Shown piece after piece: positions 3,963-4,431 of a stretch of 5,875 nt of DNA (its first letter is position 1; each line of letters starts with the position of its first letter). The notes beneath the pieces are model-generated. The model was not told where the DNA came from. It searched no databases and saw only the letters and a program-made list of their open reading frames with translations. Location of the stretch: the IMG/VR virus record IMGVR_UViG_2529292977_000021; one strand, 5' to 3'. Source of the stretch: a virus (taxonomy: Duplodnaviria > Heunggongvirae > Uroviricota > Caudoviricetes). The position numbers were made by a program, and so were the translations under genes.

Positions 3963-4059
3963 ACCTTCCTCGGTTTAGTGTTTTTTTGCGAGTTTAGTGT
4001 TTAATAAACCATTAAGTCAAGTATTTGCTTGTTTAGTGATTACTAAAGATAATTACCAC
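3963..4059. promoter_or_regulatory. Divergent promoter/operator region (OR-like) between the cro-like gene and the repressor
   Basis: Three TTTAGTG copies (3974-3980, 3993-3999, 4032-4038) at 19 and 39 bp spacing. Palindromes GTTTAaTAAAC (3999-4009) and TTTAGTgattACTAAA (4032-4047). Leftward promoter candidate: -35 TTGACT (revcomp of 4015-4020), 18-bp spacer, -10 TAAACT (revcomp of 3991-3996). Rightward candidate: TTGCTT (4025-4030), 17 bp, GATAAT (4048-4053), ending 7 nt before ATG 4060. Confidence 0.6.
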
Positions 4060-4431
4060 ATGCAAAAAAAAGAAATTCGCCGTTTACGTCTCAAGGAGTG
4101 GTTTAAAGATAAAACTCTGCCACCCAAAGAGAAGAGCTACCTATCTCAACTAATGAGTGGGAGAGCCTCGTTTGGAGAAAAGGCTGCCAGAAGAATAGAG
4201 CAAACATACGGGATGCCGGAAGGGTATCTGGATGCGGAATACGCAGAACAACCGGGGGGTTCTCCACCACATGCAGGGTTAACGTCTAATCAACTGGAAT
4301 TATTGCAGATTTTTTCAGCCTTCCCTGAGGATGAGCAACGCCAGATAATCAGCGAGTTAAAGCAGAAAAAAGAATCAATGGAAGATCTCATAGCGAGATG
4401 GATTGCGGCGCAAAAATGCCGCCGCGCCTGA
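4060..4431 (+). CDS. paaR2: HTH (XRE/CI-type) regulator, PaaR2-like; probably the prophage repressor (RacR position), lacking an S24 peptidase domain
   Basis: 123 aa from ATG 4060; the ORF track starts at GTG 3997, which falls inside the operator region. HTH-like segment LKEWFKDK...SYLSQLMSGRASFGEKAARRIEQTYGMPEGYLD. First gene of a three-gene unit with the antitoxin and ParE. No SD, and a -10-like hexamer ends 7 nt upstream, so the mRNA may be leaderless. The paralogue number (1 vs 2) is not certain. Confidence 0.75.
   Translation: MQKKEIRRLRLKEWFKDKTLPPKEKSYLSQLMSGRASFGEKAARRIEQTYGMPEGYLDAEYAEQPGGSPPHAGLTSNQLELLQIFSAFPEDEQRQIISELKQKKESMEDLIARWIAAQKCRRA

What the first reader, a model, noticed from the sequence alone, without database searches (positions are those of the whole stretch)
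4025..4071. Repressor mRNA may be leaderless, with an A8 run at codons 2-4
The only -10-like hexamer upstream of the repressor (GATAAT, 4048-4053) ends 7 nt before ATG 4060 and there is no SD, as for lambda cI made from PRM. Right after the ATG is a run of eight A (4064-4071), a possible site for polymerase slippage that could tune repressor levels.
Basis: inference. Interest (0 to 1): 0.45.

Follow-up and report, generated by a model that had tools for sequence, protein, structure and literature searches.

The report
Leaderless start of prophage repressor paaR2
This is the promoter and first codons of paaR2, the lambda-CI-like repressor of the E. coli O157:H7 cryptic prophage CP-933P; its leaderless mRNA was already shown experimentally in 2021, and the run of eight A's shows no sign of being a slippage device.

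Summary
The window is 100% identical to the immunity region of cryptic prophage CP-933P/Sp12 of E. coli O157:H7.

The gene is paaR2 of the paaR2-paaA2-parE2 operon. Jurenas et al. (mBio 2021, PMC8630535) mapped the PRM933P start by 5' RACE onto the A of this ATG. They confirmed MQKKE by N-terminal sequencing and compared the gene with lambda cI. The leaderless half is therefore correct but already known.

New here: 40 of 64 distinct homologue loci keep a -10 hexamer ending exactly 6 nt before the ATG without an SD. The 6-nt spacer itself is not conserved in sequence. Lambda PRM has the same geometry.

The slippage half is not supported:
- A8 is at or below the published detection limit for E. 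coli RNA polymerase.
- The shifted frames give only 15- and 30-residue peptides.
- Relatives encoding the same Lys-Lys use AAG-AAA, and phage Evi has CAG-AAA-AAA.
- 578 of 592 E. coli genomes match the 91-nt region exactly, A8 included.

Most likely the run is two AAA lysine codons in an A-rich, unstructured 5' end. It is at most a weak -1 frameshift hotspot.

The parts
4025..4030 (+). -35-like hexamer TTGCTT of PRM933P
   Evidence: The TTTGCTTG motif is conserved in 40 homologue loci. It lies inside the PRM933P fragment used in PMC8630535 (F-PRM/R-PRM map at 3987-4060).
4031..4041 (+). Operator repeat GTTTAGTGATT in the promoter spacer (one of three direct copies: 3973, 3992, 4031)
   Evidence: family D2. 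The PaaR2 and YdaS footprints and the GTTTAGTAA consensus are published.
4048..4053 (+). -10 hexamer GATAAT of PRM933P
   Evidence: It is the only + strand -10-like hexamer in the intergenic region. An equivalent hexamer ends 6 nt before the ATG in 40 of 64 homologue loci.
4060..4060 (+). Transcription start (+1), the A of the paaR2 ATG; the mRNA is leaderless
   Evidence: Published 5' RACE, N-terminal sequence MQKKE and intact mass (PMC8630535). It is the seventh nt after the -10, as in lambda PRM.
4064..4071 (+). A8 run spanning codons 2-4 (CAA AAA AAA), transcript positions +5 to +12
   Evidence: The 91-nt region containing it is exact in 578 of 592 E. coli genomes. The run is not conserved in relatives.
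4060..4431 (+). paaR2 CDS (123 aa), the CI-like maintenance repressor
   Evidence: PDB 7nkv/8c3k/8c3l cover residues 1-71 and are named 'Phage repressor protein CI'. phrog_5736 transcriptional regulator.
4452..4643 (+). paaA2 antitoxin, same operon
   Evidence: Pfam PF21217 PaaA2, E=1e-19.
4645..4923 (+). parE2 toxin, same operon
   Evidence: Pfam PF05016 ParE_toxin, E=1.9e-16.
3991..4020 (-). Divergent promoter PR933P (TTGACT, 18 nt, TAAACT) for ydaS-ydaT
   Evidence: Published as PR933P.
3660..3962 (-). ydaS (Cro analogue)
   Evidence: Pfam YdaS_toxin and HTH_3; PMC8630535.
3238..3663 (-). ydaT (CII analogue)
   Evidence: Pfam YdaT_toxin; PMC8630535 and PMC9986795.
3635..3754 (+). PRE933P fragment: YdaT-activated alternative promoter giving a leadered paaR2 transcript. 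It contains the YdaT operator OM, TTGATTTTCATGAATCAA, at 3653-3670.
   Evidence: Primer mapping, published activity, operator match.
5008..5035 (+). PL933P (TTGACT, 16 nt, TAAACT), which has operator copies like those at OR
   Evidence: The PL fragment maps at 4924-5041. Published.
3981..3989 (.). TTTTTTTGC, the inverted-repeat partner of GCAAAAAAA (4062-4070). On the - strand it is an A7 run 4-10 nt after the PR933P -10.
   Evidence: I1. Run length is polymorphic, T6/T7/T8. It is interrupted together with the A run in the phage Evi lineage.

Best explanation
Positions 4025-4071 are the maintenance promoter PRM933P and the first four codons of paaR2, the CI-like repressor of cryptic lambdoid prophage CP-933P. 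RNA polymerase binds TTGCTT-17-GATAAT and starts at A4060, so the mRNA begins with its AUG. Shown by others: the 5' end, the protein N-terminus, and regulation by PaaR2 and YdaS. Inferred, by analogy with lambda cI: a 70S ribosome binds the 5'-terminal AUG directly without a Shine-Dalgarno. This makes translation modest and strictly tied to the exact start site. The A8 run is simply CAA-AAA-AAA (Gln-Lys-Lys). Its most likely contribution is to keep the 5' end A-rich and unstructured, which favours leaderless initiation, and to encode a basic N-terminus. It is not a programmed or regulatory slippage site. Any slippage would remove at most a small percentage of transcripts into dead-end 15- or 30-residue peptides.
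For: Identity: 100% match to O157:H7 genomes, annotation, and the paper's primers, including F-1-PaaR2 ATGCAAAAAAAAGAAATTCGCCGTTTAC, map exactly.

Experimental proof of leaderless expression: 5' RACE +1 at the start codon, N-terminal sequence MQKKE, intact mass 15,081 Da (methods).

In the 40, the spacer columns carry almost no information while the -10 and -35 columns are conserved. Lambda has TAGATT, 6 nt, then ATG AGC ACA AAA AAG AAA. RacR and PY54 cI are also leaderless.

Accessibility: the first 16 nt are 0.92-0.96 unpaired. The all-A codon choice is the most open of the 8 synonymous versions, which range from 0.72 to 0.96. Start-codon accessibility, zero leader length and AUG identity are the known determinants of leaderless initiation. 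Downstream adenines aid ribosome binding (Brock et al. 2007, from my own knowledge; cited in PMC7610253).

Against a slippage role:
- E. coli RNAP shows no detectable slippage below T7/A8 in reporters, and an A7 run gave 0.39% insertions.
- Selection against runs typically starts at 9 nt.
- Frameshifted products are 15 aa (A9) and 30 aa (A7).
- MEKKE/MDKKE relatives use AAG-AAA, phage Evi and four E. coli genomes use CAG-AAA-AAA, and all other homologues have runs of 7 or fewer, most 5 or fewer.
- Reiterative initiation depends on the first three transcript positions, here AUG.
- Ribosome sliding needs about A11.
Against: No RNA-level measurement across the A run exists. The published mass and N-terminal data used a C-terminal His tag, which selects in-frame products, and only 5 RACE clones were sequenced, so a few percent of slippage cannot be excluded. 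The run sits at +5 to +12, where polymerase is still escaping the promoter; reporter data from elongation complexes may not transfer. The openness advantage of the all-A codons is modest and only predicted. A8 is retained in a relative with 88% amino-acid identity (L073), so some constraint on it is possible.
Confidence: 0.85

Rival explanations
1. One reading: RNA polymerase slips on the A8 run and makes A7 or A9 transcripts, and the out-of-frame fraction tunes how much repressor is made.
For: A8 is exactly the length at which E. coli RNAP slippage first becomes detectable in gfp reporters. Insertion frequency rises exponentially with run length. The run lies in the initially transcribed region (+5 to +12). 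A close relative (L073) keeps A8.
Against: Expected yield is at most a few percent (0.39% at A7), and no regulated input is evident. There is no alternative ORF. The run is absent from paaR1-type, MEKKE and MDKKE alleles and from phage Evi, although the promoter and protein are conserved. Typical selection or use begins at 9 nt. No paper links PaaR2 to slippage.
Confidence: 0.05
2. The A8 run acts at the DNA level as a contingency (phase-variation-like) site. Replication slippage to A7 switches the repressor off in rare descendants, derepressing ydaS/ydaT and the PL genes.
For: A7 alleles occur in 3 of 592 complete E. coli genomes (ETEC1732/1734/1749). They also occur in 5 of 54 near-identical IMG/VR loci, on at least two haplotypes. 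A9 was never seen. An in-frame -3 variant, MQKEIRR, exists as protein cluster P0008.
Against: Homopolymer undercalls are a common sequencing or assembly error, and the three ETEC genomes come from one study and host. The frequency is low (about 1%). There is no evidence of reversion or of benefit. Most relatives lack the run, so it is not a designed feature. In a cryptic prophage, induction has no obvious payoff.
Confidence: 0.06
3. The A8 run is one arm of a functional pair with the T7 run at 3981-3987. Three forms are possible: a stem (UUUUUUUGC/GCAAAAAAA) that masks the start codon in the leadered PRE933P transcript; twin A-tracts in the initially transcribed regions of the divergent PR and PRM promoters; or phased DNA bends flanking the roughly 78-bp PaaR2 footprint.
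For: There is a perfect 9-nt inverted repeat bracketing the operators. In a leadered RNA the arms pair in the MFE fold, and mean unpaired probability falls from 0.96 (first 16 nt of the leaderless mRNA) to 0.43 (positions -15 to +16 of the leadered context). Alleles with A8 have the T run, and alleles without A8 lack it. In the phage Evi lineage both arms are interrupted, by T>C and A>G. That is 2 of only 7 substitutions in 477 nt; my arithmetic gives p of about 0.01, post hoc.
Against: The two Evi changes are offset by one position, so they are not strictly compensatory. Run lengths vary independently: T6/A8, T8/A8, T7/A7 and T6/A7 all occur. The GC end of the T arm varies freely (GAG, GTG, CG, GCA) without a matching change. 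An 8-9 bp A:U stem closing a 72-nt loop is weak. Only about two independent evolutionary events underlie the co-occurrence.
Confidence: 0.07
4. The repressor is really made from a longer, leadered ORF starting upstream (for example GTG 3997, 144 aa), as many gene callers predict.
For: Automatic gene calls give 144- and 150-residue versions (P0001, P0002). A leadered transcript from PRE933P exists.
Against: The N-terminal sequence MQKKE and the intact mass match the 123-aa product. Homologue N-termini align at this Met, and the upstream 'coding' is just the translated promoter and operator. There is no SD before GTG 3997 (sequence).
Confidence: 0.02

Closest known systems
paaR2 / PRM933P of cryptic prophage CP-933P (Sp12), E. 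coli O157:H7 (Jurenas et al., mBio 2021, PMC8630535)
   Same: It is this very locus. The sequence is identical, and the published primers, promoters (PRM, PR, PL, PRE), +1 site and N-terminus all map onto the window.
   Different: Nothing differs. The paper does not mention the A8 run or slippage.
Bacteriophage lambda cI transcribed from PRM
   Same: Both are maintenance-repressor genes divergent from cro-like genes and share operators with them. Both have a -10 hexamer ending 6 nt before the ATG, a leaderless mRNA, an A-rich Lys-rich start (ATG AGC ACA AAA AAG AAA) and a second leadered transcript from a CII-type-activated PRE.
   Different: [quoted passage not shown] PaaR2 lacks the S24 self-cleavage domain and is followed by a ParE-type toxin-antitoxin pair instead of rexAB. 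Four inverted repeats and three operators are reported rather than three palindromes. Lambda breaks its A run at six with AAG.
RacR (Rac prophage, PracR3) and PY54/N15-type cI
   Same: These are prophage repressors divergent from ydaS/cro, with mapped leaderless transcripts.
   Different: They belong to different protein families and have different operators. racR also has additional leadered promoters.
Programmed transcriptional slippage sites (IS element A9/T9 runs, Thermus dnaX, Shigella mxiE)
   Same: Each is a homopolymeric A or T run inside a coding sequence.
   Different: Those sites are typically 9 nt or longer, are conserved, and connect two ORFs or restore a frame. Here the run is 8 nt, is not conserved, and leads only to short dead-end peptides.

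Membership tests
Leaderless mRNA of a lambdoid maintenance repressor (lambda cI/PRM type) | The transcript 5' end coincides with the A of the AUG start codon | not testable with these tools
   No RNA data can be generated here. Published 5' RACE in EDL933 places +1 on the start codon (PMC8630535).
Leaderless mRNA of a lambdoid maintenance repressor (lambda cI/PRM type) | The -10 hexamer is positioned so that the start-codon A is about 7 nt downstream | tested here: met
   GATAAT ends at 4053 and the ATG starts at 4060. The same 6-nt gap occurs in lambda and in 40 of 64 homologue loci.
Leaderless mRNA of a lambdoid maintenance repressor (lambda cI/PRM type) | No Shine-Dalgarno upstream, and an AUG (not GUG or UUG) start | tested here: met
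   No GGAG, GAGG or AGGA in the 25 nt upstream. The start codon is ATG.
Leaderless mRNA of a lambdoid maintenance repressor (lambda cI/PRM type) | An accessible, unstructured 5' end | tested here: met
   Mean unpaired probability of nt 1-16 is 0.92-0.96. This criterion comes from PMC8459731.
Leaderless mRNA of a lambdoid maintenance repressor (lambda cI/PRM type) | The protein N-terminus corresponds to the 5'-terminal AUG | not testable with these tools
   Published Edman sequence MQKKE and intact mass. Homologue N-termini align at this Met.
Leaderless mRNA of a lambdoid maintenance repressor (lambda cI/PRM type) | Immunity-region context: a divergent cro-like gene, shared operators, PL-side operator copies, and a CII-like activator with PRE | tested here: met
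   ydaS and ydaT, operator repeats, PR and PL promoter matches, YdaT operator, published functions.
Programmed transcriptional slippage site | A homopolymeric A/T run long enough for efficient slippage (typically 9 or more) | tested here: not met
   The run is 8 nt. Thresholds come from PMC1088944 and PMC6260861.
Programmed transcriptional slippage site | Slippage gives access to a second ORF or restores a frame | tested here: not met
   A9 gives 15 aa and A7 gives 30 aa, then a stop codon.
Programmed transcriptional slippage site | The run is conserved among homologues | tested here: not met
   Only the paaR2 lineage and L073 have A8, and Proteus has A7. KK-encoding relatives use AAG-AAA, and phage Evi uses CAG.
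Programmed transcriptional slippage site | A heterogeneous mRNA population at the run | not testable with these tools
   This needs error-corrected RNA sequencing. Nothing is published for this gene.
Reiterative transcription initiation | A homopolymeric tract within the first three transcribed nucleotides | tested here: not met
   The transcript starts AUGC and the run begins at +5. Criterion from PMC12709180.
Ribosome sliding on poly(A) tracks | About 11 or more consecutive A, or three or more AAA codons | tested here: not met
   Here there are 8 A and two AAA codons. A9 and A10 give little sliding, and AAA-AAA is common in E. coli (PMC4363877).

The most novel reading that the evidence does not exclude
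The A8 run and the T7 run 83 bp upstream form a coupled pair flanking the operators. Each places an A-tract in the initially transcribed region of one of the two divergent switch promoters: ydaS mRNA probably starts inside A7, and paaR2 mRNA carries A8 at +5 to +12. Together the two runs could also form a stem that masks the start codon in the leadered PRE transcript. Their joint interruption in the phage Evi lineage would then reflect co-selection, which would add a homopolymer-dependent layer (slippage, promoter escape or RNA masking) to a CI/Cro-type bistable switch.
Probability: 0.07. Interest if true: 0.5.

Novelty: already known. Interest (0 to 1): 0.12.

Why it matters
There is little new biology. 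The leaderless paaR2 message and its likeness to lambda cI were published with direct experimental proof. The useful additions are three:
- The leaderless geometry (-10, any 6 nt, ATG, no SD) is conserved across most of this repressor family, in Enterobacterales and also in Burkholderiales. This explains why gene callers often extend these genes at the N-terminus (144- and 150-residue calls here).
- The A8 run can be set aside as a regulatory slippage element.
- The run is a plausible weak frameshift hotspot, or a sequencing-error hotspot, worth remembering when annotating paaR2 as intact or broken.

Tried and rejected
- The generic sigma-70 scan did not list PRM933P because its -35 matches only 3 of 6. 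It did find PR933P and PL933P.
- Pfam found no family for PaaR2. NCBIfam gave only a weak C-terminal DicA-like hit below cutoff. Rfam found nothing in the window.
- A 44-nt megablast query centred on the run, meant to count genomes with an intact run, returned nothing, probably because of low-complexity masking. I used 90-92-nt queries carrying A7, A8 or A9 instead. Ten of the 14 non-identical genomes were not individually inspected.
- I could not retrieve Brock et al. 2007, so that point rests on my own knowledge plus a secondary citation.
- The supplementary Table S1 of the mBio paper, which lists the promoter hexamers, is held without its content, so the published hexamer assignment could not be compared letter by letter.
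- Run-length covariation between the T and A runs was examined and rejected: the lengths vary independently.
- Ribosome sliding and reiterative initiation were considered and rejected on published length and position criteria.

Full report
**What is in the sequence.** TTGCTT lies at 4025-4030, followed by a 17-nt spacer that contains the operator repeat GTTTAGTGATT. GATAAT lies at 4048-4053, then TACCAC, then ATG at 4060. The run of eight A is at 4064-4071 (ATG CAA AAA AAA GAA = MQKKE). GATAAT is the only convincing -10-like hexamer on the + strand of the 97-nt intergenic region, and no Shine-Dalgarno-like tetramer lies within 25 nt of the ATG. An A8 run by itself is not unusual here: the window has two, against 0.86 expected, and 43 of 200 shuffles reach two. 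The other one is a Lys-Lys in the replication gene.

**What the locus is.** The window is 100% identical to many E. coli O157:H7 chromosomes. The genes are:
- a YdaS/Cro-like gene (3962-3660, - strand);
- a YdaT gene (3663-3238, - strand);
- the 123-residue 'hypothetical protein' at 4060-4431;
- a PaaA2 antitoxin and a ParE toxin downstream.

This is the paaR2-paaA2-parE2 module in the immunity region of cryptic prophage CP-933P/Sp12. The primers published for that system map perfectly in the window. They include F-1-PaaR2 (ATGCAAAAAAAAGAAATTCGCCGTTTAC) at 4060, the PRM fragment at 3987-4060, the PRE fragment at 3635-3754 and the PL fragment at 4924-5041. Solved structures of residues 1-71 are deposited as 'Phage repressor protein CI'.

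**The leaderless claim is already proven.** Jurenas et al. [quoted passage not shown] They report the following:
- 5' RACE on EDL933 RNA placed the PRM933P start on the predicted start codon.
- A paaR2-His construct fused at the araBAD +1 gave a protein of the same size as the one made from the native promoter.
- Edman sequencing gave MQKKE.
- Intact mass was the expected 15,081 Da.

They also showed that PaaR2 and YdaS footprint over both divergent promoters, and that low PaaR2 levels activate PRM933P while repressing PR933P. A PL933P with similar operators exists. YdaT activates a PRE933P promoter between ydaS and ydaT. The YdaT operator TTGATTN6AATCAA is at 3653-3670. So a second, leadered paaR2 transcript exists, as in lambda, but it adds to the leaderless one rather than replacing it.

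**Comparative support added here.**
- A protein search found 156 relatives. The N-terminal DNA-binding half is 70-80% identical to the N-termini of S24-peptidase (LexA/CI-type) repressors of Serratia, Yersinia and Erwinia.
- I collected 64 loci from species-representative genomes and several closer alleles.
- Of 64 distinct promoter-start sequences, 40 have a hexamer with A2 and T6 (CAAAAT, CACAAT, TAAACT, GATAAT) ending exactly 6 nt before the ATG and no SD. Eleven have acquired a leader with AGGAG-type SD (Pasteurellaceae, Orbaceae, some Xenorhabdus). Thirteen are otherwise arranged.
- In the 40, the -35/operator and -10 columns are strongly conserved, while the 6 spacer columns carry almost no information. 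Spacer length, not sequence, is constrained.
- Lambda PRM has the same layout: TAGATT, TAACGT, then ATG AGC ACA AAA AAG AAA. RacR and PY54 cI are also leaderless.
- Gene callers often extend these genes upstream, giving 144- and 150-residue versions here, by translating the promoter.

**The A8 run and slippage.** Several independent lines argue against a tuning role.
1. *Length.* In gfp reporters E. coli RNA polymerase showed no detectable slippage on runs shorter than T7 or A8, and sequencing found 0.39% insertions at an A7 run. Across genomes, selection against A/T runs typically appears at 9 nt. Insertion rates rise exponentially with run length.
2. *Outcome.* A9 gives a 15-residue peptide and A7 a 30-residue peptide, so no alternative product is available.
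3. *Conservation.* Among the homologues only this lineage and one 88%-identical relative (L073) have A8, and Proteus has A7. The paaR1-type allele reads ATG GAA ACA AAA GAG. Three lineages that also encode Lys-Lys (MEKKE, MDKKE) write it AAG-AAA, which breaks what would otherwise be an A8 run. Phage Evi (98.7% identical), three chicken isolates and strain EC12 carry the synonymous CAG-AAA-AAA.
4. *Position.* Reiterative initiation depends on the first three transcribed nucleotides, which here are AUG. Extra 5' nucleotides would also damage a leaderless message.
5. *Ribosome sliding* needs about 11 A. Two AAA codons are translated normally.

Caveats remain. The published mass and N-terminal data used a C-terminal tag, which selects in-frame protein, and only five RACE clones were read. 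A few percent of slippage is therefore not excluded.

**What the run probably does.** The first 16 nt of the leaderless mRNA are predicted to be 0.92-0.96 unpaired. Of the eight synonymous spellings of Gln-Lys-Lys, the all-A one is the most open, with a range of 0.72-0.96. Start-codon accessibility is a main determinant of leaderless initiation, and downstream adenines help ribosome binding (own knowledge). The simplest reading is codon choice in an A-rich, lysine-rich N-terminus, as in lambda cI.

**Population data.**
- The 91-nt region occurs in 592 of 5,426 complete E. coli genomes.
- 578 of them match it exactly, A8 included.
- None has A9.
- Three ETEC genomes from one study have A7, and PGAP rescues the ORF there with an ATT start.
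- Strain 25DN has C4063A, which makes ATG followed by nine A, in frame.
- Among 54 near-identical IMG/VR loci, 45 have A8, 5 have A7 on at least two haplotypes, and 4 are Evi-type.

The run is therefore either a weak -1 frameshift hotspot or a homopolymer miscall hotspot. The data cannot tell which.

**A side observation.** TTTTTTTGC (3981-3989) and GCAAAAAAA (4062-4070) form a perfect inverted repeat around the operators. On the - strand the first arm is an A7 run 4-10 nt after the PR933P -10. The ydaS transcript therefore probably starts inside an A-tract, which is the context that favours reiterative initiation. The Evi lineage has both arms interrupted, which accounts for 2 of only 7 substitutions in 477 nt. 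My arithmetic gives about 0.01, post hoc. However, the two changes are offset by one position, run lengths vary independently (T6/T7/T8 with A7/A8), and the GC end of the T arm varies freely. I regard coupling as possible but weakly supported.

**Verdict.** The leaderless interpretation is correct and already published for this exact locus. The slippage interpretation is not supported. Novelty: already known. Interest is low.

Noticed in passing
window 3981-3989 and 4062-4070: A perfect 9-nt inverted repeat, TTTTTTTGC / GCAAAAAAA, brackets the OR operators. Phage Evi, three chicken E. coli isolates and EC12 have both arms interrupted (TTTTCTT and CAG-AAAAAA). Alleles lacking the A run also lack the T run.
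   Followed up: partly
window 3981-3996 (- strand): The PR933P -10 (TAAACT, 3996-3991) is followed by CGC and then an A7 run, so ydaS mRNA probably starts inside an A-tract, a candidate for reiterative initiation. The run is length-polymorphic (T6, T7, T8) and the adjacent GCG varies (GAG, GTG, CG, GCA) among E. coli and IMG/VR alleles.
   Followed up: partly
L002 1541-1560 (ETEC1732); L107, L127, L128, L130, L131: A7 alleles frameshift paaR2. They occur in 3 complete ETEC genomes, where PGAP re-annotates an ATT start 15 nt downstream of the native ATG, and in 5 IMG/VR loci. Whether they are real mutations or homopolymer miscalls is undecided.
   Followed up: partly
L003 1541-1555 (strain 25DN): C4063A turns the start into ATG followed by nine A (MKKKE), in frame. 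A second change to A in codon 17 (Asp to Glu) lengthens another A run.
   Followed up: no
window 3997-4059; proteins P0001, P0002, P0004, P0005, P0046, P0050, P0109: Automatic gene calls extend PaaR2-family proteins N-terminally (for example 144 and 150 aa) by translating the conserved promoter and operator ('FACLVITKDNYH'). This looks like a systematic mis-annotation of leaderless genes.
   Followed up: yes
proteins P0061-P0120: The N-terminal DNA-binding domain of PaaR2 is 70-80% identical to that of about 210-residue S24-peptidase (LexA/CI-type) repressors in Serratia, Yersinia and Erwinia. PaaR2 therefore looks like a domain-swapped version without the self-cleavage domain.
   Followed up: no
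L023 and L025, 6 nt before the ATG: In two Erwinia loci the 6-nt spacer reads GGGAGG or AGGAGG directly abutting the ATG. This is an SD-like string with zero spacing inside an otherwise leaderless geometry.
   Followed up: no
window 1944-1951 and about 1975-2020 (- strand gene 2608-1400): There is a second A8 run (sense strand, Lys-Lys) and a QEQEQEQEQEKEQEQ low-complexity repeat in the replication-protein gene.
   Followed up: no
L070 1956-2417: In the paaR1-type allele (79% nt identity) an extra helix-turn-helix gene sits between the repressor gene and the relB/parE-type pair.
   Followed up: no
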